Under the pieces are notes generated by a model. It saw nothing but the letters and a program-made list of their open reading frames with translations. It did not search any database and was not told where the DNA came from. This document shows positions 1 to 48,028 of a stretch of DNA of 64,000 bases, in pieces; position 1 is the first letter of the stretch; every line of letters starts with the position of its first letter. The DNA is from Anaerolineae bacterium (GTDB taxonomy: Bacteria > Chloroflexota > Anaerolineae > Epilineales > JAHCIE01). The translations under genes were made by a program, and so were the position numbers. The stretch spans positions 212,221-276,220 of the forward strand of contig JAXLWK010000004.1 of assembly GCA_046328525.1 (NCBI GenBank), given 5' to 3'.

Positions 1-866
1 GTCTTTAGCTCATCCTCGCTCAGAGCGGCGGTGAGCGTGCGGCGGAGCGCGGACAGGTCAATGCCCTCGGTGCCGGGCAGCTTCGGGGCCTCCGCCAGCG
101 CCGCCGCGTCCCCCGCCGCCGGCGGATCGGGGCGTTGGAGGGCCGCGGCGCGCGCCTGGATCGAGCGCAGGCTGGCTCTGAGCGCCTCGATGTCGTGCTT
201 CAGCGCTTCCAGGTTCTGCGCCAGCGGGCCGTCCAGCGACGCCGCTTGCAGGTCGTCCAGCAGGTCGTAGAACTGCCGCTCCTGGGAGCGTTGCGCCGCC
301 ACCGCGACGGCGCGGCTGTAGAACTCACCGGGCGTCGGCCCGTCAGCGTACTCTACCAGTGTCACGTGCGTCAGGCCCGTATCCCCAGCCACATAGTCGG
401 CCACGGCGTGCACCATCACCTCGGCGGCGCTCGCCGGCGGCATGCGGGCAAAGCCGGTGGCGAGGGCGGGCAGGGCGAGGGTGCGCGCAGACAGGGCATC
501 GGCCAGCTTCAAGCACCGCAGCATCGCCTCGCGCAGCTGCGCCTCGCCGGCGTACACCCCTCGGTCGAAGTCAACGACGACGACGAATAGGATGTACTGC
601 GCCTGAAGCGCGCCGGCGGTCGTCGCCACCACATCGCCCAGCTGCAGGGCGGTGTGCTTGCGCGCATCCTCCCACACCGCCGCACCGCCGGCCTTCAGGA
701 GCGCCAGCGACGCCCCGCCGCCCATCGTCAGGTAGTTGTCGTCGGAACAGACGAGGGCGTCCGCCTCGACCGCCGCGATGTCGCCCCGCGTGACGCTGAC
801 GGTCGTGTGGCGAAACTGAAAGTCCGAAATGCTCTGCCCCGTTGGGACGCTCGGAGATGCGCCCAT
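1..866 (-). CDS. Macro (ADP-ribose binding/processing) domain protein with a C-terminal extension carrying an effector-associated-domain-like helix; 3' end runs off the window start
   Basis: My own translation of the minus strand from ATG at 864-866 gives MGASPSVPTGQSISDFQFRHTTVSVTRGDIAAVEADALVCSDDNYLTMGGGASLALLKAGG... These are classic macro-domain motifs (GDI..ADA.V...N..L..GGG....AGG). After the macro domain comes a helical region ending ...GIDLSALRRTLTAALSEDELK at the window edge. It is absent from the ORF track because no stop lies inside the window. Confidence 0.6.
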   Translation of the reverse strand, partial: MGASPSVPTGQSISDFQFRHTTVSVTRGDIAAVEADALVCSDDNYLTMGGGASLALLKAGGAAVWEDARKHTALQLGDVVATTAGALQAQYILFVVVVDFDRGVYAGEAQLREAMLRCLKLADALSARTLALPALATGFARMPPASAAEVMVHAVADYVAGDTGLTHVTLVEYADGPTPGEFYSRAVAVAAQRSQERQFYDLLDDLQAASLDGPLAQNLEALKHDIEALRASLRSIQARAAALQRPDPPAAGDAAALAEAPKLPGTEGIDLSALRRTLTAALSEDELK

Positions 867-1035
867 ATTGCCCTCCCTTGAGAATGGGCCTGGGCCGCCG
901 CAGTCCAGACCCTTCGCTTCGTTGCTCAGAACACAAGTTGCGGTGTCGCTGCGAGGAGGGCGACAGCCCGACGAAGCAGCCTCCCGGTCGGCGACAGACC
1001 CGCCGTCGCCGCTTAGGCGCACTCTAGCAAGGCCG

Positions 1036-1068
1036 GGAGATTGCTTCGCTACGCTCGCAATGACGCCA
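1036..1068. repeat. Half-copy of a MITE-like family with GTCATTGCGAG / CTCGCAATGAC terminal inverted repeats (family C)
   Basis: gagattgcttcgctacgctcgcaatgacgcc matches the 3' half of the elements at 11495-11625, 14578-14835, 39718-39800 and 61588-61702. Confidence 0.6.
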
Positions 1069-1137
1069 CTGGTCTCTGTTACCGTACCGCGGCGCGCTGT
1101 CACACGGCACAGGGTTCTCGGGGTGACGCCTGCACCT

Positions 1138-2358: not shown

Positions 2359-5195
2359 TTACCCGTTCTTATCCGTTGACAGCCCCTCCCCCATCGGCAG
2401 CGCGGCCTGGCCCTGGGCGGCGGCGCGCTGGAGGTTGAGCGCCAGCAGCCGCGCCAGGATGTCCTCGTCGCCGAGGTCGCGCGGCCAGCCGTAGGCGTCC
2501 AGGACGGCGGCGTCGAGCTTCTTGTGGGCCAGGTCGAGCCAGGCCGGGCGCGCGTTGTAGAGGTTCGTGAGGGTGCGCTTCTTAAGCTCGGCGTCTGAGG
2601 CGTCGGGCGGGTTGAGCCAGGCGTCGCGCTTCTCGACAAGCTCCCGCGCCGCCTGCGCGATGGCCCCGACGCGCGCGTCGTCCGGCGGCTCCTGGCCCGG
2701 CGGCCACGGGAACGGGAACGTCTCGAAAGTGGTCGTGGGCGTGTAGCGGAAGCCGCTTTCCGCTTCTCGAAGCTGCGTTCCCATGCGACGCGCCCATAGC
2801 TCGTGCAGCCTTGAGTGCAGGACGCCGAAGAAATAGTCATCGTCGCGCACGATAGCAATTGTTGCTGAATCTGCTAGGGTCTCACGGCTAACCCATGTGA
2901 AAATGCGGTGCTTGGAGACTCGGGGCGTAACTATGTACCGCTGCAATGAAAGAACGGCAGCTCGAAACGCCGGGCGTGGTTCCATATGAATCCACCACCG
3001 CTCCCGATACGCTGCCCGATTGTTTTTCAAGCGTTCGGGATAGACGTTAGATTGCACATGGGTAAAAGGCTGCTCGTAGAGCGCTGCGTCCTCTTCAGGC
3101 ATATCCACGCCAAAATCAACAATCCACATATAGCGAGGACGGCGCGTAATGTCAAGGCCGTTCGCCCACGGTCGAACCACGTCGCTGTTGGGGCGACCAT
3201 TCGGGTTGCCGACAGCCGCAAGCATCTGCTGCGCAACATCGTGCGGTATGTCGAACGCCCCCCCTTGGTGTCGCCCATGTACGCATGGTTGAAGTTCTCA
3301 GCCAGCCGTTGCGCTAACGTCAGATTGAGAGTACCGGTGAGATTCGGGTTGATAGCTTGCACAGTGTTATCATCAAGCGTGCGTTCAACCTCACTGCCCT
3401 TGTCGAAGCCAACCATCGAGACCTGAACGGCTGCTCCGCCCTGAATCCAGCGGCGGTCGCTCCAGGCCATGAAGACATCACCCGTTTCCTTGATTCTCTC
3501 AAGCACGCGGCGGTTGGCACCGCCGCGAATGGCTTGCGTCGCCAATAGGCCGGCGCGTTTGGCTGTGTCCGCCGCGATCATGGCGCGGGCCTTCTCGAAC
3601 CAGTAGGTCACCAGGTCGGCCTCACGCGGCACGCGGCCATCATAGAGCGTGAACAGGTCGTCAACATACTTGTCGCCCAACTCGGCGCGCAGGCGCTTGC
3701 CGCCGAGGAAGGGCGGGTTGCCGATGATGACGTCGGCGGCGGGCCAGGCCGGCTCGGCGGGGCGACCGGCGTCGTCGAAGGCCAGGATGGCGTCCATCTC
3801 GCGGATGTTGTCCAGCGGTTTTAGGATTGGCTCGCCCGGGAAACCGTAGCCGTTGTCGTGCAGCCACTGGAGGTAGCCGATCCACACCGTCGCCTGGGCC
3901 AGCTGCTGCGCGTACTCGTTGATCTCGATGCCGTAGAGCTGCTCGGGCGAGACGCGGGGGAAGAACGTGTTCAGCCCGACCTCGCCGGCGAAGGTGCTGA
4001 CCGTCTTTTCGAGGTCCAGCAGCTCCTTGAGGGCGACGTAGAGGAAGTTGCCGCTGCCGCACGCCGGGTCCAGCACCGTGATCGCCGTCAGCCGCTCCGC
4101 AAAGCCCATCACCAGCGCCGTTAGCTCGTTCTGGAGGCGCGTCCGCGCGGCGCCCGCCGCCCCGTCGCGCCGCCCGGCCAGCTCCCGCGCCCGCGCCTGC
4201 ACCTCCGCCCACTCGCGGCGCAGCGGGGTCATCAGCACCGGCTCGACAATCAAGAGGATGTCCTGGCGGCTGGTGTAGTGGGCGCCGAGCTGGGCGCGCT
4301 TGTCCGGGTCCAGGCTGCGCTCGAACAGCGTCCCGAACACCGACGGCTCGATGCTGGACCAGTCCAGCGCTGTGAGGCGGTCCAGGATGGCGAGGCCCTC
4401 GGAGCCCAGGTCGAGCGCGGCGGCGTCGTCGAACAGCCCGCCGTCGAAGTGGCGGATGGCGTCGTAGCCAAAGACACCGCCGCTGGACATGGCCTCGAAG
4501 AGCTGGCGCAGAGCGCCGCTGAACTGCGCCGGCCGCCCGCGGAGGTTGTGCACCAGGCGCGTGAACGCCTCGCGGGGGAGGAGGTCAATGTCCTCGGCGA
4601 ACAGGCAGAACAGCAGGCGGATGAGGAAGTGGGCGGCGGCGTGGGCGTCTGCGCCCTGCCCGCGCAGCAGGTCGGCCAGGTGGGCGAACTGGCGCGCGGC
4701 CTCCTGGGTGACGCTCTCCGGCGTCTGAGGCGTCTTGAAGGCGTCGGGATTGGTGAAGACGTCGCGCAGCCGCCGCAGGCCGTCCGGTGTGAGCAGGTCG
4801 TCCAGGGTGAGGATCACCTGCTGCTTGACGGTGTTGGTGAAGTTGGTGTGGACGACGATGCGCTCCATGTCGGAGACGACGAGGAGGGGCGGGTTCTCCA
4901 GCGCCTCGCGGTACTGGAGCAACTGCTGGTACGCCTTATCGAGGTTGGCGTGCCGCCCCTTGTACTCCCAGGCGAAGAAGCCGCGCTTGTACACGTCGGC
5001 CCAGCCCTGGCCGCCCTTCTGCTTGCTCGCGCCGGCCTCGAAGGTAAAGCGCGTGCCGGTCGGGTCGTCCTCGACCGGCGTGGGGTGGCCGACGAGGCGG
5101 CACAGGTCAATGAAGTGCTCCTGGTAGCCGGAGCGTTCCTTGACGGCGGTCTGCCGCCACTTGGCGACGAAGTCCTGGGGTGAGAGGTCGGGCAT
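2359..5195 (-). pseudogene. MmeI-family Type IIL restriction-modification enzyme (N-terminal PD-ExK nuclease, gamma-class N6-adenine methyltransferase, C-terminal target-recognition domain), split by a -1 frameshift in a G7 homopolymer at 3258-3264
   Basis: ORF 3027..5195 has an MmeI-like N-terminus (HFIDLCRLVG..., GWADVYKRGFFAWEYKGRHANLDKAYQQLLQY, LLVVSDMERIVV) and MTase motifs I (VLDPACGSGNFL) and IV (IIGNPPFLGG). Its frame degenerates after ...NHAYMGDTKGG. The downstream ORF 2359..3225 (MLAAVGNPNGRPNSDVVRPWANGLD...) continues the protein in the +1 frame. Inserting one G into the G7 run (C7 on the plus strand, 3258-3264) restores a continuous reading frame of about 946 aa (...GDTKGGAFDIPHDVAQQMLAAVGNPNG...). 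Confidence 0.75.
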
Positions 5196-11487: not shown

Positions 11488-11625
11488 GGGGGCGTGGGGG
11501 GCGAAGCTCCCCACTGGCGAAGCAATCTCGCGGTAGGTGTATGTAGGGGCAGGTTTGAAACCTGCCCCTACGGAGACGGGGGATTGCTTCGCTCCACTCG
11601 CAATGACGGTCTTATACTCAGGAGG
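11488..11625. repeat. Composite repeat: family C element (..gcgaagcaatctcgcgg...ggattgcttcgctccactcgcaatgacgg) enclosing the hairpin gtaggggcaggtttgaaacctgcccctac (family F)
   Basis: The same hairpin recurs at 49516-49546. The family C termini match 14714-14835 and 61588-61702. Confidence 0.7.
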
Positions 11626-14573: not shown

Positions 14574-14577
14574 ACCT

Positions 14578-14835
14578 GTCATTGCGAGACGGGCGATAGC
14601 CCGAAGAAGCAATCTCCCGATGCGGCGACGCCCAAGCTAGCCCGCTACGGAGCGCCGCTCACAAGAGCGGGAGGTTGCTTCGCTCCGCTGCTCAGAACAC
14701 ACACGACCGGCTGTCATTGCGAGGCGACCTTGCCGCCGAAGCAATCTCTCGCCAGGTGAAAGACACGCCGGCGCCGCTCAGACCGCCTATCGCAAGGGTG
14801 CGGGATTGCTTCGCTGACGCTCGCAATGACGGCTT
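14578..14835. repeat. Two adjacent family C MITE-like elements (each ~120 bp, TIR GTCATTGCGAG...CTCGCAATGAC)
   Basis: gtcattgcgagacgggcgatagcccgaagaagcaatctcc... and ctgtcattgcgaggcgaccttgccgccgaagcaatctctcgcc...ggattgcttcgctgacgctcgcaatgacgg. Confidence 0.75.
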
Positions 14836-16458: not shown

Positions 16459-17586
16459 TCACTCTTGCAGCGGCTGGAAACCGCGGCCATGCACCTCTTG
16501 GGCCGGCGAGACGATCACGAACGCTTTCGGGTCCGCCGCATTGACCAGGGCCTTGAGCCGGTTGATCTCCGTCACCGTGAGCGCCACCATCAGCACGTCG
16601 CGCTCCTGACCGGAGTACATGCCCTTGCCGTGGAGGGCCGTCACCCCGCGCTTCAACTCCTTCATGATGGCGTCGGCGACGGCCTGGGGCTGCTCCGTCA
16701 CGACCAGGGTCAGCACCTGCTGGCGGTGGCGCGTCAGGCGCGGGATGATCTGGCCCACGTCCCAGATCCGGCCCGGCTTGCCCCCCTTCGGGAACAGGTC
16801 GCCGACGACGGGGATGTTCTCGTACTTTGGCAAAATCTCGCCCGGTGACTCGTGCAGGCCAATCGTGCCGAAGCCCACCGCAAAAATGATGGCATAGAAG
16901 ATCAGGAGCGCCGTCAGCACCACCCCGCCAGACGTGTCGCCGATCGCGGCCCGCTGAACGATGCCATCCCACGATGAGATCGGGATGGGGTGCAGATAGA
17001 GCTTGAAGATGAGGGCGATAGCCACCAGGATGTATAGCCAAACGTAGTTGCGGCGGAAGCGGCGGCCAAATGCTTCCGCTGTCGTAATCGGGAAACCAGG
17101 GACAAGCAAGGAGTGAGCCAGGCTTTCGGCCCACTCGGCGTGGGGGGTGAACGGCGGCACGAGCATCGCTGCGAAGAAGTCGGTCTCGATGAGCCGGGCG
17201 CGGTAGCTCCACAGCTCGTAGTAGCGGTAGCGGCGGGCTTCGATCCACAGGAACAAGGTGAGCAGCACCATGTTCATGACGAGAATCGCGTAGTGGTTGG
17301 AGATACTGGAGAAGCAGAAGGTGACAGCGGCGCTGGTGGTGATGACGGCCCAGTTGGTGGTGGTGTCGAGGCGCTGCCGCCAGGCGTTGCTGCGCTGGAT
17401 CTCGGCGCGGTAGTAGTGCACCATCGCCGTCGTGAACTCCGAGGCGCGCAGGTTGTAGCCTCGATACGACCAGACGGCCTCCGGCGTCGGCCCGGCGCCC
17501 GGTGGCGGTGACGCGCCGGCGGCGGGCGGCGCACCGGGAACGCCGTCCGAGGCAAACGGCGGCGCGTTCGGGTTGACGCTCGGCAT
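16459..17586 (-). CDS. Membrane protein: N-terminal DUF2270-like TM domain plus C-terminal YitT/DUF2179-like domain
   Basis: SD GGGGAGGG before the ATG (MPSVNPNAPP...). C-terminal ...TALHGKGMYSGQERDVLMVALTVTEINRLKALVNAADPKAFVIVSPAQEVHGRGF resembles DUF2179. Confidence 0.55.
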   Translation of the reverse strand: MPSVNPNAPPFASDGVPGAPPAAGASPPPGAGPTPEAVWSYRGYNLRASEFTTAMVHYYRAEIQRSNAWRQRLDTTTNWAVITTSAAVTFCFSSISNHYAILVMNMVLLTLFLWIEARRYRYYELWSYRARLIETDFFAAMLVPPFTPHAEWAESLAHSLLVPGFPITTAEAFGRRFRRNYVWLYILVAIALIFKLYLHPIPISSWDGIVQRAAIGDTSGGVVLTALLIFYAIIFAVGFGTIGLHESPGEILPKYENIPVVGDLFPKGGKPGRIWDVGQIIPRLTRHRQQVLTLVVTEQPQAVADAIMKELKRGVTALHGKGMYSGQERDVLMVALTVTEINRLKALVNAADPKAFVIVSPAQEVHGRGFQPLQE

Positions 17587-17671
17587 ATACCCTCCCCTAT
17601 GAACCATGCCCCGACGGACCTATCCCAAGCCCCAATGATAGCCGCACAGGACCCCGCGCGCAACTGGCCCC

Positions 17672-17712: not shown

Positions 17713-17728
17713 CAGGGTCTTGTCTGAA

Positions 17729-18075
17729 GGTGGAGATGGCGGGAATTGAACCCGCGTCCCGAAAGCTGCACCGAAGGCGTCTACAAGCTTAGTCGTCTCC
17801 CGAGTTGTCGCGCTGGTCCATCTTAGCCGACCAAGCCGGATCCAGCGCCAGGCGACGGTCTTTCGCTTCCCTCATCGCCGTCGGGGAAGCGGCACTCCGG
17901 CTAAATGGTGCTGCTAACTAGACTGTCGGAGTGAGACTAGCGCAGCATCGCCACCCTTAGGCGGCGAGGGCCAATGGTTGATTGGCAGTTGTTGTTTTGC
18001 CCACTTTTTACGAGGATCAGGCGCCTCGGCTTGCAGCCCGCGATCTTCCCTCCCGGTCGAAACCATGTCATCCCC
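17729..18075 (-). ncRNA. ssrA: tmRNA (ssrA); encoded tag peptide ends ...ANQPLALAA
   Basis: The reverse complement begins GGGGATGACATGGTTTCGACCGGG... and ends ...GGACGCGGGTTCAATTCCCGCCATCTCCACC (tRNA-like T-arm/acceptor). The internal reading frame gcc aat caa cca ttg gcc ctc gcc gcc taa gives the canonical ALAA-ending tag. Confidence 0.85.
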
Positions 18076-19203: not shown

Positions 19204-19363
19204 CGTGAATTCCTCTCATACGGGCATTCGCTCGGGTCAATCCCCTTTATTATAGGCCAGGACGGTGCATGAACCCTGTCTCGACGGCGACGCTGCAATT
19301 GGCCGCTGGCCCCTGGTTCTATATAATAGTACGTCATTGTCGTCGCCAACACCGGGGGGTCAA

Positions 19364-22300
19364 GTGAATACCCGTTCTTGCCCGCGCGCGCTCGTCCGCG
19401 CCCTGCTCGCTCTCCTCGCCTTCGCCACCGTCCTCGCCGCCGGCCGGCCGGCTTACGCGATCGGTTCCACAATCATCTACGTCGTGCCCGGCGGGGCGGG
19501 CGCCAAGACCGGCGCCGACTGGGCTAACGCCAACGACCTCGCGCCGGCGCTGGCCGGCGCCAGCGGCTCCGCTGAAATCTGGGTGGCCGCCGGCACGTAC
19601 AAGCCAACGAGCGGCACGGACAAAAGCGAGACATTCGCTCTCAAGAACGACGTGGCCGTCTACGGCGGGTTCGCCGGGAACGAGACGCAACTCAACCAGC
19701 GTAACTGGCGCACCAACGTCACCATTCTGAGCGGCGACATCGGGACGGCGAACAACAATGGCGACAACAGCTACCACGTCGTGACGGGTAGCGGGACGGA
19801 CGCGACAGCCATCCTCGATGGCTTCACCGTCACGGGCGGCAACGCGAGCGTCGGGGGCGGGGATTGCGCGGGCGCCAGATGCGGCGGCGGGATGCTCAAC
19901 ATCGGCGGCAGCCCGACGGTGACCAACGTCACCTTCAGCGGCAACAATGCCTTCCGCGCCGGCGGCGGAATGTACAACGGTATCAACGTCACCATCCCGA
20001 GCAGCCCGACGCTGACCAACGTCATCTTCAGCGGCAACACCGCCGATACCGGCGGCGGGATCGAGAATGACTACAGCAACCCGATCCTGTTGAACGTCGT
20101 CTTCAGCGGTAATCGCGCGGACAAGGGCGGCGCGCTCTACAATGCTGGGATCTCGCCCAGCAACCCGACAGCGCTCACCAACGCCACCTTCAACGGCAAC
20201 TCTGCCAACCAGGGTGGCGCGGTCTACAACGTCAATAGCAGAGTGGAGATCCGCAACAGCATCCTGTGGGGCGACAGCGCCCCCAACAATAGCGAAATCT
20301 TCACCGACACAAGCTCACGGAACAGCAAAACCTGGGTGTACTATAGCATCGTCCAGGGGTCGGGCAGCAGCGGCTTTTGGACCACGGAAGCTCCGAATAC
20401 CCCAGGTACGTTCGATGGCGGAAACAACCTCGATACCGACCCGATGTTCCAGGGGGCGCCGAGCAACCTGCGCCTGCAGTACGCCTCGTCGGCCATCAAC
20501 AAGGGCAACAACACGTACGTCTCCGGCGTGACGACCGACCTGGACGGGAACCCGCGCATCGTGGGCGGGACGGTGGACATGGGCGCGTACGAGTCGCCCT
20601 GCCCGGCCCAGGGCAGCATCATCTACGTGAACGGTGGCGCTTCGGGCGCCAATACCGGCGCGAGCTGGACGGACGCCTACACGACCTTGACGGCGGCGCT
20701 GGCGGGCGTGCCGACGACGCCGCCCAACGCCTGCGCCGAGATCTGGGTCGCGCAGGGGACGTACACCCCGACGACGCCCAGCGGCCGCGATGCCACATTC
20801 ACCCTCAAGAGCAACGTGGCGATCTACGGCGGGTTCACCAGCGGGCAGACGCTGCTAAGCCAGCGCAACTGGCGCGCCAACGTCACGACGCTGAGCGGCA
20901 ACATTGGGACGTCGAACGACACCAGCGACAACAGCTACCACGTCGTGACGGGCAGCGGGACGAATAGCACCGCCATCCTCGACGGGTTCACCGTGACCGG
21001 CGGCAACGCGAGCGTACAAACTATCCCGACCGACCGTGGCGGTGGGATGTACACCAGCGGCGGCAGCCCCTCCCTGACCAACATCTTGTTCAGCGGCAAC
21101 TCGGCCTGGAACGGCGCCGGGATGTACAGCGAGAGCAATAGCCGCCCGACACTGACCAACGTCTCGTTCATCAGCAACAGCGCGTCTAGCACCGGTGGCG
21201 GGCTGGGCATCGCCGACAGCAGCACGACGCTGACCAACGTCACGTTCAGCGGCAACTCCGCCTTCTCGGGCGGCGCGCTGTACAACGAAAGTGGCAGCGT
21301 GACGGTGACCAACGGCCTTTTCAGCGGCAACTCCGCGACCGGCTACGGCGGCGGCGTGTGGAACAACGGCACAGGGGGCGCGGCCACGATCACCTTCACC
21401 AACGTCACATTTGGCGGCAACTCCGCCCAATTCGGCGGCGCATTGTACAACGCTCAAGGCAGCGCGACGATCCGCAACAGCATCCTGTGGGGCGACGGCG
21501 GCGGCAGCAGCGAGATTCAGGGTACTCCTGCGACTGTGACCAACAGCATCGTTCAGGGCGGCTACGGCTCCCCCACCGATAACAACCTTGACGCCGACCC
21601 GAAGTTCATCACGCCCATCACGGCCTCCGCCCCGACGACCACCGGCAACCTGCGCCTGCTGTCAGGCTCCCCGGCCTTCAACGCCGGTAACAACAGCGTC
21701 ACTAACCCGTCGCTGCCCGCCACCGACCTGGACGGCGCGCCGCGCATCGCGTTCGGCACAGTGGACATGGGCGCGTACGAGACGCAGATCGTCGCCAGCC
21801 CGACTCAGTCGCCGGCCGCGAACTCCGCCGGCTGGAACAACACCGACGTCACGGTGACCTGGAACTGGCGCAACACCGCCGGCGCCGTCCCCGCCAGCGC
21901 CGACTGCCCCGCGACCAGCGCGTCATCGGGCGAGGGCACGCTCACCGTGACCGGCGCGTGCAAGGACGCGAACGGTTCCACCGGCGCCGCGTCGTACACC
22001 GTCAAGGTAGACAAGACCGCACCGACGGTCACTCTCAACTCCGCGGCGAACTCCTGCGATGTGCCCGGTAGCAACGGCTGGTGCCGCGGGACGCAGACGG
22101 CCGGCTTCAGCGCCAGCGACTCGCTCAGCGGCGTCGCCAGCCCCTGCACTGGCGCCACGTGCAACTTCACGCAATCCACGACGACCAACGGGAGCGGCGT
22201 CACCATTAGCTCCGGCCAGGTGTGCGACGTAGCCGGCAACTGCGCCTCCAGCAACGCCGGCCCGTTCAAGATCGACTCCGTCGCCCCGACGAATGTGAGC

Positions 22301-23101
22301 GGCGCGCCGACAACGCCGCCGAACGGGAGCAACGGCTGGTACAAGTCGTCGTTGCAGGTGCAGTTCGCGGGGAGCGACCCCAGCCCAGGCTCGGGCATTG
22401 CCTCGTGCTCCCTGGTCACCTACAGCGGCCCCGACGGCGCCTCGGTGACGGTGAACGGCTCGTGTACCGACTACGCCGGGAACACCAGCAACTCGGTCGC
22501 CTCCAGCGCGTTCAAGTACGATGCCACAGGCCCAACCCTGAACCCGACCATCTCGCCCAATTCGCCGGTGCTGGGCGGGACGGCGACAGCCTCGCCCAAC
22601 GCCGGCGACGCCACGTCCGGCATCGCCAGCCAGAGCTGCGATCCGGTGAACACGTCGAGCGTCGGAGCCAAAACGCTCACCTGCACGGCGACGGACAACG
22701 CCGGCAACACAAATAGCGTTGTGGTCCACTACAGCGTCGGCTACGCCGTCAGCACCGTGTCGCCCATCGTGGCCGCGCCGAGCGTCAACAGCCTCTACCT
22801 CCTGGGGATCGGGACGACGGCGACGCCAATCAAGTGGACGCTGAAGAACGCGGCGGGGACGCCGATCACGGCGGCCGGGACGGTGACGGGGATCGCGTAC
22901 AAGGTGAACCCGGGCTGCGGGACATTCCCGACGGATCCGACGGGGGCGACGGCGGCGAGCGTGACGGGCACGAACCCGAAGTACGACACGTTGCAGAAAG
23001 CGTGGGTGTACAATTGGATCCTGCCTGGGCGCGGCTGCTACAGCCTGTTCATCACCCTGAACAGCGGCCAGACGCTGACCCTGTTCTACCACAGCTATTA
23101 G
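19364..23101 (+). CDS. Giant secreted protein: two right-handed parallel beta-helix (pectate-lyase/Pmp-like) domains, Ig/HYR-like domains and the same conserved C-terminal domain as 8035..9918
   Basis: Probable GTG start ([32 protein letters not shown] signal peptide). The track ORF starts at 19265. Two homologous blocks [20 protein letters not shown]...[13 protein letters not shown] / [20 protein letters not shown]...[13 protein letters not shown], each followed by imperfect GG.xYN repeats (beta-helix rungs). C-terminal ...[25 protein letters not shown]. Confidence 0.7.
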
Positions 23102-39306: not shown

Positions 39307-39397
39307 GCGGAGGGGGAGGGATTTGAACCCTCGACGGGGGGTTAAGCCCCCGTAGGCGCTTAGCAGGCGCCCGCACTAGACCTGGCTATGCGACCCC
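39307..39397 (-). tRNA. tRNA-Ser (anticodon GCU)
   Basis: The reverse complement is GGGGGGGTCGCATAGCCAGGTCTAGTGCGGGCGCCTGCTAAGCGCCTACGGGGGCTTAACCCCCCGTCGAGGGTTCAAATCCCTCCCCCTCCGCC. Long variable arm, anticodon loop CTGCTAA, T-arm GGTTCAAATCC. Confidence 0.8.
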
Positions 39398-39520
39398 CCC
39401 AGGCTGCGGAAGGTATTATAACACACTCCGGCGGCGTGGTCAAGCGATAGTGACGGGGTGACGGAGTGGCAAAGTGGCGTTCACATCGTCACTTCCTCAC
39501 ATCGTCACCCACTCTCACAA

Positions 39521-39610
39521 GGCGGAGGGAGAGGGATTCGAACCCCCGATGAGGACAAGCCCCATAACGGTTTTCAAGACCGCCGCATTCAACCGCTCTG
39601 CCATCCCTCC
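39521..39610 (-). tRNA. tRNA-Ser (anticodon UGA)
   Basis: The reverse complement is GGAGGGATGGCAGAGCGGTTGAATGCGGCGGTCTTGAAAACCGTTATGGGGCTTGTCCTCATCGGGGGTTCGAATCCCTCTCCCTCCGCC. Anticodon loop CTTGAAA, long variable arm. Confidence 0.85.
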
Positions 39611-39717: not shown

Positions 39718-39990
39718 CGTCATCGCGAGCGTAGCGAAGCAATCCCGCGCCCTTGCATCACGTGGTCTAGTCGAGAAATAGCGCCGCGTTCGCCTACCGC
39801 GAGATTGCTTCGGCAGTGGGGAGCTTCGCCCCCCACACCCCCGAAAGAAGCCCGCCTGCTATGAAAGTTCGTTCGGGCCGCGTCGTCGCCGGCCCAGGCG
39901 AACTTTCCTGGCAAGAGATGGGAACGCCAAGGCGCAAAGACGCAAAGGGGAACATCGCGTTATCTTTCTTTGCGCCTCTGCGCCTTGGCG
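39718..39990. repeat. Intergenic repeat cluster (family C copy plus family E gcaaagacgcaaag...ctctgcgccttggcg)
   Basis: tcatcgcgagcgtagcgaagcaatcccgcg...cgcgagattgcttcggcagtgggg and ggcgcaaagacgcaaaggggaacatcgcgttatctttctttgcgcctctgcgccttggcg (compare 49790-49870). Confidence 0.6.
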
Positions 39991-40125
39991 TTCCTGTCCT
40001 CTTCGCGCAACCCGAAAGCCTGCTATAGCCTGCCTCTCACCCGGCGGGAGGCTGCTTCGTCCTCCTATCGTCGTCCTCGCAGCGACGCCGTATCTCGCGG
40101 GCGAAGCAGTCACCCCGTCACCCTC

Positions 40126-44964: not shown

Positions 44965-45075
44965 CGTAGGCTCAAGCCTACGGCTACTCATGCAAGCCCA
45001 AGGGGCTGGCGGAGCCGGAGCGGCAGCCTCTCAGGCTTGCACTCGTAGCCCGCTGCTTCAGCGGCGGGCGGGCCT
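44965..45075. repeat. Family A dispersed repeat
   Basis: gtaggctcaagcctacggctactcatgcaagcccaaggggctggcggagccggagcggcagcctctcaggcttgcactcgtagcccgctgcttcagcggcgggcgggcc. Confidence 0.8.
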
Positions 45076-45185
45076 GGCGTTCGGGGCGAGCATCCGGGGG
45101 TTTCTTGTGTCGGCGCATGCCGTGCCAACGGCATGGGAGTCTTGGCGTGACAGCCCAGGGATTTCAAAAGGAGGAAGATGCGTTA

Positions 45186-48028
45186 TGCCCGATACGACAA
45201 ACACGCCGTTCGATCCGCCCCTGCCAGGCGACTGGGCCAGGGGCATTGACGTGGCGGTCTGGCAGCAGGGGCTGGACTGGGCCGCCATCGCCCAGGCCGG
45301 CTTCGGGTTCGCCTTCGTCAAAGCCACGGAGGGTGACGACTACACCGACCCCGCCTTCGCCGGCCACTGGCAGGCCGCCCGCGACCACGGCCTGCTGCGC
45401 GGCGCGTATCACTTCTTCTGGCCGGAAGACGACCACGAGAAGCAGGCGCGGCTGTTCGTCGAGACGGTCAAGCAGCTCGAAAGCGACGACCTGCCACCGA
45501 TCATAGATGTCGAGGCGCGGCCCAAAGCGCCGCCGTTCCCCAACGAGCAGTGGGTTGACGGCGTGCGCACCTGGCTCGACATCGTGGAGAATGGGCTGGG
45601 CCGCCGCCCCATGATCTACACCAGCCCCGGTGAGTGGGCGCACCTGCGCGATGGCTCCGGCCTGCCGCCGACCTGGACGGCGCGCTATCCGCTGTGGGTC
45701 GCCCACTGGGACACGGCGCAGCCCGCCCTGCCGGACGGCTGGGACAACTGGTTCTTCTGGCAGTACAAGGCCGACAGCGTGCCCGGCTTCAGCCGCGCCG
45801 TGGACTACGATGTCTTTCGCGGCTCGCGGGACGATCTGCGCCGCTGGCTGACCGGATCGGCGAGCGGCCCGGCGCTGACCGCCACAGCCGCCGCCGCCCC
45901 GACGCGCCCGTCCTTCCCGCTGCGGGTCAGCTACATCAATCAGATCGAGTCCGATGGCAGCGGGCACGACAACTGCGGCCCCTGCTGCCTCACCATGGCC
46001 CTCTCGTCCATCGGGCAGGTCGCGGCGGCAGCCGAGTCGTCGCTGCGCGATATCATGCACCGGGTGTCGGCCGAGCTGAAGGGGACCGACTGGAGCACGC
46101 CGGTCTTCACCGACTTCGACGGCATGGGGCGTTACCTGGACGGGCGACGCATCGCCCACCGCGCCCTCCGCACCTGGCAGAGCGTGGAGCAGACGCTCGA
46201 CGCCGGCCAGCCCGTGATCCTGCGGCTGTGGAACGGCGCGCTGGAGCCGTATGCCTACGGCGCGGGGCCTGGCTGGGTGTCCAAACACTTCATCGTCCTG
46301 CTCGGCTACACCGACACCGCCTACTACGCCGCCGACCCGCTGACCTTCCCGCGCCGCGACCTGGTGCAGTACACGCGCGACAGTGTGCGCCGCGCCGTCG
46401 CCCGGGTGCGCAGCGATGCGGGGCTGTCGTTCGAGGTGGACGCCTTCGTCGTCGGCGATCCGCCGTCCGTCGCGCCGACCCCCGGCCCGATGCTGATAGA
46501 CCCCATCGATTCCGCCATCAGCGATGCCCAGCTTCAGGCCTATCTGGAGCAGTACCTCAAGAAGCAGGGGCAGAGCCTCAACATGGACAGCGCCATCATG
46601 CGCGCGGCTGCCCTGGCCTATCGGCGCGGGGAGACGCGCGGCCCGGCCCTGTCGCTGGAATACAACGTCAAGCTCGACAGCGGCCAGATTGTGTCACGCC
46701 AGGATTTCACGGCGAGCGTCGCGCAGCGCGACCCGCAGACGAACCAGGTCACCTGGCTGGAGGTCGTCCTCCACCCGGACGAGCTGAAGCGCGAACACCT
46801 GGCCGAGACCCTGGACGGACGAGCGGCCGAGCCGGAGGTCCCGTTCCCCACGCGGGCGGCGGGCTTTGTTCGCCGCGAGAACGGCGAGCTGCGCCTGGAT
46901 GGGCAGCCGTTCAAGTTCGTCGGCGTCAACACGCGGGAGCTTCTTCACTATGGCAATCACGCCATCGTTCCGCAGAACTGCAACGAGGAACAGATCGGGC
47001 AGCAGCTCGACGCCGCGCGCCTGATGAAGGCCAGCGTCGCCCGCGTTTTCCTGGCCCACCGCGCCTATGACCCCGCCTCCCTGGCGGCCGAGGTGGGCGA
47101 CCGGCTGGCCGCCGCCCTGGACATCGCCTGCGGGCCGGTGGACAACCTGCGGCCGGACGCGGTCCGCCTCCTCGTCGCCTTCACCGACTACAACAGCGGC
47201 CGCGGCTACTACCCGCGCCAGGACGAGCCGTTCTTCAACCCGGCCGGCTTCCTCGAAGGGGCCGACTGGTACAACGGCCAGTGGCGCGCCAACTACTGGC
47301 CGTTGGTCGAGGCCATCGTGGGCCGCTTCAAGAACGACCCGCGCATCTTCGCCTGGGAGGTGGGCAACGAGCTGAAGCTACCGGCCGACCCCGAAACCTT
47401 CCTCGGCTTCATGACTCTCGTCACGTCGGAGATCAAGAAGCTGGACCCGAACCACCTCGTCGGCGCGGGCATCATCAGCACGCTCCACTGCGCCTTCGAC
47501 GACGTGCAGGCGGGCCGCTTCTATGCTAACCCCAACCTCGACTTCGCCACGCTCCACCTGGCCGGGAGCGGCGCAGACTACCCGCATCTTCCCCCGCTGG
47601 CCGAGTTCGCCGACAATCCGGATGAGGGGCGGCGGCGGGCGTATCTCGCCCACGAGCTCGCCCTGGCCGGAGCGACCGCCAAGCCGCTCATCGTCGAGGA
47701 GGCGGGCTACCTGCCGCCGGAGATGCCGCGGCTGGAAGACCTGGCGACGTATGCGTTCACGGCGGGCGCTGTCGGCTTCCTACCGTGGGGCTTCTCCGGC
47801 TTCCCCGACCAGAAAGACCGCGATGTCGGCGACAACAGGTTTGGCCTCGGCAACTTCCCGCCGCACTTCGACGCTGGTCTGTTCGACCAGGTGATCCACG
47901 GGCTGGCCGCCCTCGTGATGGGCCAGTTCGCGCCGGGCGGTGACCGGGGAACCCTGTCGCCCCCGCCGAAGAAGCCCGGGCGGCGGCGCTCCACCCGCAA
48001 GGCCCCGCCCAAGCCCCCCAAAGGCTGA
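45186..48028 (+). CDS. Multi-domain cell-wall hydrolase/lysin: GH25 muramidase, C39-like peptidase domain and GH5-like TIM-barrel glycosidase domain
   Basis: MPDTTNTPFD... GIDVAVWQQGLDWAAIAQAGFGFAFVKATEGDDYTDPAFAGHW...GAYHFF...WFFWQYKADSVPG..VDYDVFRG (GH25 signature). ...SYINQIESDGSGHDNCGPCCLTMALSSIGQ (Peptidase_C39_2-like). ...FKFVGVNTRELLHYG...RIFAWEVGNELK (GH5-like NE motif). The track ORF start 44990 over-extends. Confidence 0.7.

What the first reader, a model, noticed from the sequence alone, without database searches (positions are those of the whole stretch)
1..866. Macro domain protein with effector-associated-domain-like C-terminal region, truncated by the window edge
Seen in sequence (own translation; absent from the ORF track): a minus-strand gene starts at 866 and encodes a canonical macro domain (VTRGDIAAVEADALVCSDDNYLTMGGGASLALLKAGG...). 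It continues with a helical segment ending GIDLSALRRTLTAALSEDELK at the window boundary. Established knowledge: macro domains bind or hydrolyse ADP-ribose and are recurrent in anti-phage and conflict systems (Thoeris-like, NADase-linked, NLR-like). Short L..LL...FS..EL..L helical EADs couple effectors to NTPase-based conflict systems. Inference: the remainder of the gene and its neighbours, outside this window, may form a defence system.
Basis: partly seen in the sequence, partly recalled or inferred. Interest (0 to 1): 0.5.

Follow-up and report, generated by a model that had tools for sequence, protein, structure and literature searches.

The report
Macro protein with CARD-like adaptor tail
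The window edge cuts a real gene for an ADP-ribose-binding (macro) protein whose tail is a small CARD/Death-like adaptor (EAD7), so it probably plugs into a bacterial cell-death/immunity network, but its neighbours are ordinary genes, not a local defence system.

Summary
A minus-strand gene starts at ATG 866 and runs off the window at base 1, giving 288 codons, and it carries a macro domain (Pfam E 6e-17). A 99%-identical full-length orthologue (339 aa) shows that only about 51 residues are missing. The last 18 residues in the window begin a Pfam EAD7 domain (PF19960).

Three orthologous loci and the 64-kb window hold no STAND, TIR or SIR2 gene and no second EAD7.

Context from relatives supports a conflict-system role:
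- The same macro clade is joined to trypsin, CHAT, TIR or membrane proteins through a shared, unnamed adaptor motif.
- It is fused as Macro–AAA_16–CHAT.
- It is translationally coupled to a caspase–EAD7 gene.

This is a new member of the known EAD-coupled systems of multicellular bacteria. The partner was not identified.

The parts
1..866 (-). Partial CDS, 288 of ~340 codons, for the Macro - helical hairpin - linker - EAD7 protein. The 3' end lies beyond the window edge.
   Evidence: Translation. Full-length orthologues P0001-P0004 of 339-341 aa. About 99% DNA identity to L003.
871..879 (-). Shine-Dalgarno-like AAGGGAGGG, 4 nt upstream of ATG 866
   Evidence: Read directly from the sequence. 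The N-terminus is conserved with P0002.
351..830 (-). Macro domain, window residues ~13-172
   Evidence: Pfam PF01661 E 6e-17. AF2 model with pLDDT >90 over this region. Foldseek hits to macroH2A1.1, YmdB, TTHA0132 and PARP14/15, with target-normalised TM ~0.85.
714..746 (-). Clade-invariant motif S41-D-D-N-Y-L-T-M-G-G-G51, the Gly-rich phosphate loop. D43 sits where MacroD enzymes have the catalytic Asn. S53, just downstream, sits where they have the catalytic Asp.
   Evidence: Family alignment. HMMER alignment to YmdB. Motif table in PMC8120803.
135..326 (-). Antiparallel helical hairpin, window residues ~181-244
   Evidence: AF2 helices 180-208 and 213-243 in P0001 numbering, pLDDT 80-97. 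Conserved at 47-70% among orthologues and 23-30% in distant relatives.
57..134 (-). Pro/Ala-rich flexible linker, window residues ~245-270
   Evidence: pLDDT 52-61 in the AF2 model.
1..56 (-). First ~18 residues (helix 1 and the start of helix 2) of the EAD7 domain. The remaining ~50 residues lie outside the window.
867..1137 (.). Upstream intergenic region, the presumed promoter region. It contains a copy (~912-1065) of a short dispersed repeat. The segment 828-1132 is replaced relative to the otherwise 99%-identical contig L003.
   Evidence: blastn comparisons and pattern search.

Best explanation
SHOWN. The gene encodes a ~340-aa protein built from four parts: an N-terminal macro domain, an antiparallel helical hairpin, a flexible Pro/Ala linker and a C-terminal EAD7 domain. 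No transmembrane predictor was run.

INFERRED FROM A PREDICTED STRUCTURE. EAD7 has a CARD/Death-like helical-bundle fold.

INFERRED MECHANISM.
1. The macro domain binds an ADP-ribose-type ligand. This could be a free NAD+-derived nucleotide or an ADP-ribosylated macromolecule. Because the domain lacks the MacroD catalytic Asn, Asp, His and Tyr, it most likely acts as a reader or sensor and not as a MacroD-type hydrolase.
2. The tethered EAD7 makes homotypic EAD7-EAD7 contacts, CARD-style, with other EAD7 proteins encoded elsewhere in the genome. Candidates are STAND NTPases, caspase/CHAT proteases and TIR proteins. This couples ADP-ribose recognition to a regulated cell-death or immunity network typical of filamentous Chloroflexota.
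3. The gene is a dispersed 'solo' component, not part of a local operon.
For: - Architecture: Pfam Macro plus EAD7 in four orthologues. AF2 mean pLDDT is 89, with macro at residues 12-171, hairpin at 180-243, a low-confidence linker and a helical EAD7 at 270-332.
- What EAD7 sits on: among 79 EAD7 proteins, AAA_16 occurs 11 times, nSTAND1 8, CHAT 6, NPHP3_N 4, Roc-COR 2, TIR 2 and kinase 2. Chloroflexota examples are EAD7-NACHT-HEAT, EAD7-NB-ARC, CHAT-EAD7-AAA_16, caspase-EAD7 and kinase-EAD7.
- Solo EAD7 genes are the rule. In 72 of 78 Chloroflexota loci only one EAD7 ORF lies within +-6 kb. [quoted passage not shown]
- The same macro clade (motif SDDNYL.MGGG) is repeatedly wired to conflict effectors:
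  - as single polypeptides Macro-AAA_16-CHAT (L119, L136);
  - as a macro gene overlapping (ATGA) a caspase-EAD7 gene (L022);
  - through a shared C-terminal adaptor motif with the adjacent Trypsin_2 (with Trypco1 upstream), CHAT, TIR_2 or small membrane protein.
  The macro-hairpin unit is the constant partner and the other gene varies.
- Reader rather than hydrolase: YmdB N22, N25, D35, H39 and Y126 correspond to C40, D43, S53, L57 and Ala here. Only the Gly loop and the adenine-binding Asp (D29) are kept. The best structural matches include the non-catalytic readers macroH2A1.1 and PARP14/15 macro domains.
- Precedents: the macro domain acts as signal receptor in type II Thoeris (PMC11204291). 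Bacterial CARD-like domains activate proteases (PMC10312443).
Against: - No cognate EAD7 partner was found. There is none in the 64-kb window or in +-10 kb of three orthologous loci. The one related genome present in the genome collection (STL-CHL22 MAG) gave only the macro gene itself in a motif-restricted scan.
- The EAD7 of this gene lies almost wholly outside the window and is inferred from a 99%-identical orthologue.
- Ligand binding, lack of hydrolysis and EAD7-EAD7 pairing are all untested.
- The clade-invariant Asp-Asp-Asn could provide a non-canonical catalytic site.
- In the window's sub-clade loop 2 has drifted (GTGxGxFP -> ATGFARMP), which could mean altered or weakened ligand binding.
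- The family has no PADLOC match.
- The flanking genes are housekeeping.
Confidence: 0.5

Rival explanations
1. Adaptor-tethered ADP-ribosylhydrolase effector or regulator, the classical reading of Kaur et al. The macro domain is catalytically active through a non-MacroD mechanism. Once recruited by EAD7, it removes ADP-ribose marks or degrades ADP-ribose-derived signals made by invader or host ARTs, TIRs or SIR2s.
For: - Kaur et al. list Macro and Nudix among domains acting on ADPr or NAD+ in these systems, and state that EAD7 mainly recruits effectors (PMC7159879).
- The Gly-rich loop and adenine-binding Asp are intact, and the invariant SDDN motif could be catalytic.
- The best sequence match in the PDB is TTHA0132, of unknown activity, and YmdB is also matched.
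- TIR partners occur in the wider clade, so signal turnover is plausible.
Against: - All five MacroD-type catalytic positions are substituted.
- Within the wider family the macro unit is the constant component while recognised effectors (protease, TIR, membrane protein) vary. That pattern fits a sensor or regulator better than one effector among many.
Confidence: 0.28
2. Orphan or decaying remnant. The Macro-EAD7 gene has lost its partner, and EAD7 and the hairpin now serve at most for self-association. There is no current conflict function.
For: - No partner was found.
- Loop 2 and a conserved His have drifted in this sub-clade.
- The family is tiny: four or five 90% clusters, with no orthologue in JGI metagenomes.
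- The adjacent MmeI gene is frameshifted and the gene's 5' region has been rearranged.
Against: - The ORF is intact in four lineages that have diverged to 59% identity.
- The macro domain (65-82%) and EAD7 (48-83%) are conserved at least as well as the hairpin and linker, which indicates purifying selection on both ends.
- The gene is kept at the same chromosomal site while its neighbours vary.
Confidence: 0.12
3. Housekeeping stand-alone macro protein, YmdB/Af1521/MacroD-like (O-acetyl-ADP-ribose deacetylase or RNase III regulator).
For: NCBIfam's best hits are PRK00431-type 'ADP-ribose-binding protein / O-acetyl-ADP-ribose deacetylase' models. One source names a relative that way. The surrounding genes are housekeeping.
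Against: - All NCBIfam scores are far below the equivalog cut-offs (86 bits against 278).
- The catalytic motif is absent.
- An extra hairpin and a CARD-like adaptor are present.
- Distribution is narrow and patchy.
Confidence: 0.05
4. Local operonic defence system. The gene works with the genes just beyond the window edge or with the adjacent MmeI-type restriction-modification gene.
For: An MmeI-family RM gene lies two genes away in the window and in L001. The site between the NHL-repeat gene and the GT4/GlmS genes is variable.
Against: - The downstream genes in L001 and L003 are a small membrane protein, a 99-aa ORF, a luciferase-like enzyme and DoxX. In L004 the gene is flanked directly by the NHL gene and a convergent 169-aa gene.
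- MmeI and the amidohydrolase are absent from L004, so no neighbour is conserved.
- No STAND, TIR or SIR2 gene or second EAD7 is present.
Confidence: 0.05

Closest known systems
EAD-coupled components of NTP-dependent conflict systems (Kaur, Burroughs, Iyer, Aravind, eLife 2020 PMC7159879; eLife 2021 PMC8195603), specifically EAD7 (Pfam PF19960)
   Same: - A small, terminal, all-helical non-catalytic EAD7 is fused to a nucleotide-processing or -binding domain.
- It occurs in Chloroflexota (multicellular, filamentous bacteria).
- EAD7 is also found on STAND NTPases, TIR, caspase/CHAT, Roc-COR and kinases.
- Copies may be encoded away from the core system.
   Different: - No cognate EAD7 core is adjacent or in the window.
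- A Macro+EAD7 architecture was not seen in the supplementary tables I could search.
- The macro unit looks like a constant, possibly sensing, component and not one of many effectors.
CARD/Death-fold adaptors: animal CARDs (NOD1, NLRC4, caspase-1, Apaf-1) and bacterial CARD-like domains of gasdermin and other defence systems (Wein et al., PMC10312443; PDB 8ss1, 9frr)
   Different: - The fold is predicted, not solved, and sequence identity is only 9-24% across the listed hits.
- Filament or pair formation is untested.
- The cargo is a macro domain, not a protease.
- It is not in an operon with an NLR-like ATPase.
Type II Thoeris ThsA (TM-macro effector sensing TIR-made ADPR conjugates; PMC11204291; bioRxiv 10.1101/2024.01.03.573942)
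   Same: The macro domain is used as a ligand receptor, not as a hydrolase. Relatives of the window's macro clade sit directly downstream of TIR_2 genes (L123, L127).
   Different: No transmembrane domain is apparent. There is no adjacent TIR here. There is no PADLOC match to Thoeris models. Output would go through a CARD-like adaptor, not through membrane clustering.
MacroD-type hydrolases (E. coli YmdB, human MacroD1/2, Af1521, viral Mac1) and Thermus TTHA0132
   Same: The macro fold is shared. The best PDB sequence matches are TTHA0132 at E 1.5e-15 and YmdB at 2.5e-13. The Gly-rich loop and adenine-binding Asp are conserved.
   Different: The N-GGVD-GVYG catalytic motif is not conserved; the equivalent residues are C40, D43, S53, L57 and GFAR. 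The protein has an extra hairpin and adaptor, and NCBIfam scores are below cut-off.

Membership tests
Macro domain superfamily (PF01661) | Profile score above Pfam's gathering threshold | tested here: met
   62.1 bits against a cut-off of 22, E 6.3e-17, window residues 44-151.
Macro domain superfamily (PF01661) | Three-layer alpha/beta/alpha macro fold | tested here: met
   The AF2 model has pLDDT >90 over residues 12-171. Foldseek gives target-normalised TM 0.80-0.87 to macroH2A1.1, YmdB, TTHA0132 and PARP14/15.
Macro domain superfamily (PF01661) | ADP-ribose pocket elements: adenine-contacting Asp (GD motif) and Gly-rich phosphate loop | tested here: met
   G28-D29 and G49-G50-G51 align with YmdB G10-D11 and G30-G33. 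Actual ligand binding cannot be tested with these tools.
MacroD-type ADP-ribosylhydrolases (YmdB/MacroD1/Af1521-like) | Catalytic motif N-x6-GG[VLI]D ... G[VIA][YF]G (YmdB N22, N25, D35, H39, Y126) | tested here: not met
   The equivalent residues are C40, D43, S53, L57 and G-F-A-R (HMMER alignment; motif list from PMC8120803 Table 2; clade alignment).
MacroD-type ADP-ribosylhydrolases (YmdB/MacroD1/Af1521-like) | NCBIfam equivalog score above the curated cut-off | tested here: not met
   The best score is 85.9 bits against a cut-off of 278 (NF001668). All 11 macro-type models among the 13 hits score below their cut-offs.
EAD7 (PF19960), effector-associated domain | Profile score above Pfam's gathering threshold | tested here: met
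   Met in the full-length orthologues: P0001 (99% identical) scores 49.5 bits against 32, E 3.6e-13, and P0002-P0004 score 46-51 bits. Inside the window only ~18 residues are present, giving E 0.016 against the broad profile.
EAD7 (PF19960), effector-associated domain | Small, non-enzymatic, all-alpha domain at a protein terminus, fused to an effector or signalling domain | tested here: met
   It is C-terminal, covers residues 270-332 and forms five helices. It is fused to a macro domain.
EAD7 (PF19960), effector-associated domain | [quoted passage not shown] | tested here: not met
   No other EAD7 was found in the six-frame translation of the window or of L001, L003 and L004. This feature is described as frequent but not obligatory (PMC7159879, section 30).
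EAD7 (PF19960), effector-associated domain | A cognate EAD7 on a core component somewhere in the same genome | not testable with these tools
   The rest of the genome is not available. A motif-restricted scan found only the macro gene in the related STL-CHL22 MAG. Caps on collection and protein searches were reached.
Death-fold superfamily (CARD/DD/DED/PYD) | Death-fold helical bundle | tested here: met
Death-fold superfamily (CARD/DD/DED/PYD) | Homotypic oligomerisation or filament formation | not testable with these tools
   No multimer prediction or experiment was available.
Thoeris type II (ThsB TIR + ThsA TM-macro) | Adjacent TIR gene, transmembrane helices on the macro protein, and a match to Thoeris models | tested here: not met
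   There is no TIR in the neighbourhood and no PADLOC hit. No hydrophobic transmembrane segment is apparent in the sequence or model; no dedicated TM predictor was run.
DarTG and other catalogued macro-containing defence systems (PADLOC-DB v2) | Match to any PADLOC protein model | tested here: not met
   Zero families at E<=1 for the window protein and at E<=1e-3 for P0001, P0005, P0008 and P0012.

The most novel reading that the evidence does not exclude
The macro-hairpin unit may be a ligand sensor and not an effector. On this reading it is a constant component that detects an ADP-ribose-derived signal, for example one made by TIR proteins or by invader ADP-ribosyltransferases. Ligand-induced oligomerisation would then nucleate CARD-like EAD7 assemblies that recruit and activate EAD7-tagged caspase/CHAT proteases. 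That would be an inflammasome-like 'ADP-ribose sensor -> CARD -> caspase' pathway in filamentous bacteria. In sister lineages the same logic would be wired through a second, still unnamed adaptor motif, or through direct Macro-NTPase-CHAT fusion.
Probability: 0.2. Interest if true: 0.75.

Novelty: new member of a known kind. Interest (0 to 1): 0.4.

Why it matters
If the model holds, this protein links two themes of bacterial immunity that are usually studied separately. One is NAD+/ADP-ribose signalling, the logic of TIR and macro domains in Thoeris. The other is Death-fold (CARD-like) adaptor signalling to caspase-like proteases and NLR-like NTPases.

It also shows that EAD-tagged genes can sit alone among housekeeping genes. 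Neighbourhood-based defence finders such as PADLOC miss them for that reason.

The practical value is modest. The result gives a defined, small, soluble candidate for testing what a non-MacroD macro clade binds. It also allows a test of whether EAD7 pairs homotypically like a CARD.

Tried and rejected
- **Partner in the window or at orthologous loci.** I scanned the six-frame translations of the window and of L001, L003 and L004 with a narrow and a broad EAD7 HMM (323 domains). The only hit was the gene itself. Pfam scans of 30 large window ORFs found no STAND, TIR or SIR2 gene.
- **Partner in the same genome.**
  - The genome-contig scan used one 10-residue pattern and kept the best 80 loci. 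Only the macro gene of the STL-CHL22 MAG was recovered, which is inconclusive.
  - The last protein search, with the EAD7 alignment, returned only short (<=129 aa) stand-alone EAD7 proteins.
  - Two of these, from un-annotated NCBI MAGs, came from unrelated assemblies.
- **The EAD7 fragment alone in the word-indexed search.** This returned one fragment only.
- **Is the helical hairpin a divergent EACC1?** I rejected this. Pfam gives no EACC1 hit. The EACC1-EAD7 protein of L012 aligns with our protein only over EAD7.
- **Supplementary tables of PMC7159879 and PMC8195603.** I searched for a listed Macro+EAD7 architecture and found none. The files are partly truncated.
- **PADLOC.** There were no hits for the family.
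- **Closer orthologues with longer context in JGI metagenomes.** None were found. The scan returned only the wider clade, which turned out to be informative.
- **Rfam on the window.** It found no RNA element near the gene.

Full report
**1. Observation**

On the minus strand an ATG at 866-864 opens a frame that stays open for 288 codons to the window edge. A Shine-Dalgarno-like AAGGGAGGG at 879-871 precedes it. The ORF tool omits this frame only because it runs off the window.

The frame is a real gene:
- Pfam Macro scores E 6.3e-17, 62 bits against a cut-off of 22.
- Homologues of 99, 76, 74 and 59% identity exist in Anaerolineae-type MAGs.
- The DNA is about 99% identical to an independent contig, L003.

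**2. The missing end**

The full-length orthologues are 339-341 aa, so only ~51 residues lie beyond the window. All four score above threshold for Pfam EAD7 (PF19960) at their C-terminus, with E 1e-12 to 1e-13. The window's last ~18 residues (LSALRRTLTAALSEDELK) are the start of that domain.

**3. Anatomy**

An AlphaFold2 model of the 99%-identical orthologue has mean pLDDT 89. It shows four parts:

| Part | Residues (P0001 numbering) |
|---|---|
| Macro domain | 12-171 |
| Antiparallel helical hairpin | 180-208 and 213-243 |
| Low-confidence Pro/Ala linker | 244-269 |
| Helical EAD7 | 270-332 |

Foldseek confirms the macro fold, with matches to macroH2A1.1, YmdB, TTHA0132 and PARP14/15.

**4. 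The macro pocket**

I used the HMMER alignment to YmdB and the published motif list N22, N25, G32, D35, H39, Y126 (PMC8120803 Table 2). The window protein has C40, D43, G50, S53, L57 and G-F-A-R at those positions. It keeps the adenine-binding Asp (D29) and the GGG loop.

The motif SDDNYL[TS]MGGG is invariant across the clade. NCBIfam equivalog scores are far below their cut-offs. This is therefore a distinct, non-MacroD macro clade. It is more likely a reader, but a non-canonical hydrolase cannot be excluded.

In the window's own sub-clade loop 2 has drifted from GTGxGxFP to ATGFARMP.

**5. Neighbourhood**

In the window the gene is followed upstream by these genes:
- an Amidohydro_2 gene;
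- an MmeI-family restriction-modification gene, frameshifted here;
- an NHL/PA14 protein and an Ig/BNR protein;
- QueA, an ABC transporter, GNAT acetyltransferases, MazG and other housekeeping genes.

Beyond the window edge, orthologous loci show a 126-aa Phage_holin_4_2-type membrane protein, a 99-aa ORF, a luciferase-like enzyme, DoxX, a GT4 glycosyltransferase and GlmS. In L004 the macro gene sits directly between the NHL gene and a convergent 169-aa gene.

No neighbour is conserved. None is a STAND, TIR or SIR2 gene. A broad EAD7 profile built from 323 domains finds no second EAD7 in the window or in these loci. The 'local defence system' inference is not supported.

**6. What EAD7 does elsewhere**

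A full HMMER search found 966 representative proteins with EAD7, many carrying tandem copies.

Pfam scans of 79 of them gave these counts:

| Domain | Proteins |
|---|---|
| AAA_16 | 11 |
| nSTAND1 | 8 |
| CHAT | 6 |
| ATPase_2 | 4 |
| NPHP3_N | 4 |
| Roc-COR | 2 |
| TIR | 2 |
| Protein kinase | 2 |

A genome scan returned 79 distinct loci, almost all from Chloroflexota. They include EAD7-NACHT-HEAT, EAD7-NB-ARC, CHAT-EAD7-AAA_16, caspase-EAD7, kinase-EAD7, EAD7-PQQ-CHAT and EACC1-EAD7. In 72 of the 78 loci other than the macro gene's own, only one EAD7 ORF lies within +-6 kb. Dispersed solo EAD7 genes are therefore normal in this phylum.

This matches the published 'EAD principle'. [quoted passage not shown]

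**7. What the macro clade does elsewhere**

This gave the most informative evidence. More distant homologues (38-43% identity over macro plus hairpin) replace EAD7 with a conserved ~60-80-aa helical motif that has no Pfam match.

In every locus examined the same motif occurs on the directly adjacent, often overlapping, gene:

| Locus | Gene carrying the motif | Support |
|---|---|---|
| L087 | N-terminus of a CHAT protease | E 8e-14 |
| L088, L097, L100, L104 | C-terminus of Trypsin_2 (Trypco1 upstream in L088) | HMM hits |
| L123, L127 | C-terminus of TIR_2 proteins | HMM hits |
| L084 | Small membrane protein | BLASTP 7e-6 |
| L089, L090, L092, L096 | Small proteins with no Pfam match | HMM hits |

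Two more links connect the clade to proteases and NTPases:
- The macro clade also occurs as single polypeptides Macro-AAA_16-CHAT (L119, L136).
- In L022 a degenerate member overlaps (ATGA) a caspase-EAD7 gene.

The macro-hairpin unit is thus a constant component, joined by interchangeable adaptors or by fusion to variable effectors and to a STAND-type ATPase. In the window's lineage the adaptor is EAD7.

**8. Mechanism**

Shown:
- the domain architecture;
- the Death-like predicted fold of EAD7;
- the loss of the MacroD catalytic residues;
- the absence of local partners;
- the repeated association of the clade with proteases, TIR proteins and NTPases.

Inferred:
- The macro domain binds an ADP-ribose-type ligand.
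- EAD7 pairs with EAD7 proteins encoded elsewhere, coupling that recognition to a STAND/caspase-type network.

I favour a reader or sensor role (confidence about 0.5 for the overall model). A hydrolase-effector role is the main rival (0.28). Precedents exist for both halves of the model. Macro acts as signal receptor in type II Thoeris (PMC11204291). Bacterial CARD-like domains activate proteases (PMC10312443).

**9. Novelty and limits**

Both domains and the EAD framework are published, and Pfam's precomputed annotation already labels these proteins Macro+EAD7. This is therefore a new member of a known kind.

I did not see the Macro+EAD7 architecture in the searchable supplementary tables. 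It is rare: four or five 90% clusters, and none in JGI metagenomes. It is absent from PADLOC.

There are three main gaps:
- The cognate partner was not identified, and the tools could not reach the rest of the genome.
- The EAD7 of this particular gene is inferred from an orthologue.
- All biochemical steps are untested.

Noticed in passing
L084 7579-9038; L087 3165-5880; L088 773-2992; L089 818-2339; L090-L106, L123, L127 (macro ORF plus the ORF just upstream): Distant homologues of the macro protein end in a conserved ~60-80-aa helical motif (..N..LE.q.a.YG...vP..l.N.i..) with no Pfam match. The same motif sits on the adjacent gene, which encodes a CHAT, Trypsin_2 (with Trypco1 upstream), TIR_2 or small membrane protein. 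It behaves like an unnamed homotypic adaptor that follows the 'EAD principle'. Weak hits also occur C-terminal to EAD7 in two small proteins (L064 5872-6420, L010 1560-2147).
   Followed up: partly
L119 2722-5640; L136 389-3397: Single polypeptides of ~1000 aa combine an N-terminal macro domain of the same SDDNYL clade, an AAA_16 (STAND-like) ATPase and a C-terminal CHAT protease.
   Followed up: partly
L022 1587-3697: A degenerate macro-hairpin gene (31% identity to the window protein, with the GGG loop lost) ends in an ATGA overlap with a caspase(Peptidase_C14)-EAD7 gene.
   Followed up: partly
window 2359-5195 (-): The MmeI-family (type IIL) restriction-modification gene is split into two overlapping ORFs (3027-5195 and 2359-3225). 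Compared with the intact 960-aa orthologue in L001, the frame changes near 3183-3285. This is either a pseudogene or a sequencing error.
   Followed up: partly
window ~912-1065, 11577-11608, 14577-14831, 39718-39756, 40045-40090, 61594-61689: A short dispersed repeat of ~100-155 bp has the core CATTGCGAGCGTAGCGAAGCAATC. The core occurs 4 times against 0 expected, and related copies occur in L001. One copy lies in the intergenic region just upstream of the macro gene. It looks like a MITE- or REP-type element.
   Followed up: partly
window 828-1132 compared with L003 1063-1296: The window and contig L003 are ~99% identical across the amidohydrolase and macro genes. The exception is the intergenic region plus the first ~12 codons of the macro gene, which are replaced. 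The window's N-terminus resembles that of P0002, so L003 probably carries the derived version.
   Followed up: partly
window 16459-17607 (-): This gene encodes a DUF2270 (PF10028) + DUF2179 membrane protein. A 2025 preprint (10.64898/2025.12.03.692087) reports DUF2270 proteins next to TIR genes as candidate Thoeris-type effectors. No TIR was seen among the ORFs scanned here.
   Followed up: no
window 17728-18075 (-); 39308-39400 (-); 39523-39610 (-): A tmRNA gene (169 bits) and two tRNA genes are present.
   Followed up: no
window 19265-23101 (+); 44990-48028 (+); 55213-59211 (+): Three very large ORFs have unusual domain mixes: 1278 aa with Chlam_PMP repeats; 1012 aa with GH25 lysozyme plus a C39-like peptidase; and 1332 aa with OmpA, PG_binding_1 and a weak Peptidase_M78 hit.
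   Followed up: no
proteins P0017-P0165 and P0166-P0227 (not in the window): EAD7 occurs as tandem arrays of 3-7 copies inside large proteins. It also occurs as many stand-alone 65-130-aa proteins. Both forms could act as scaffolds or decoys in a CARD-like network.
   Followed up: no
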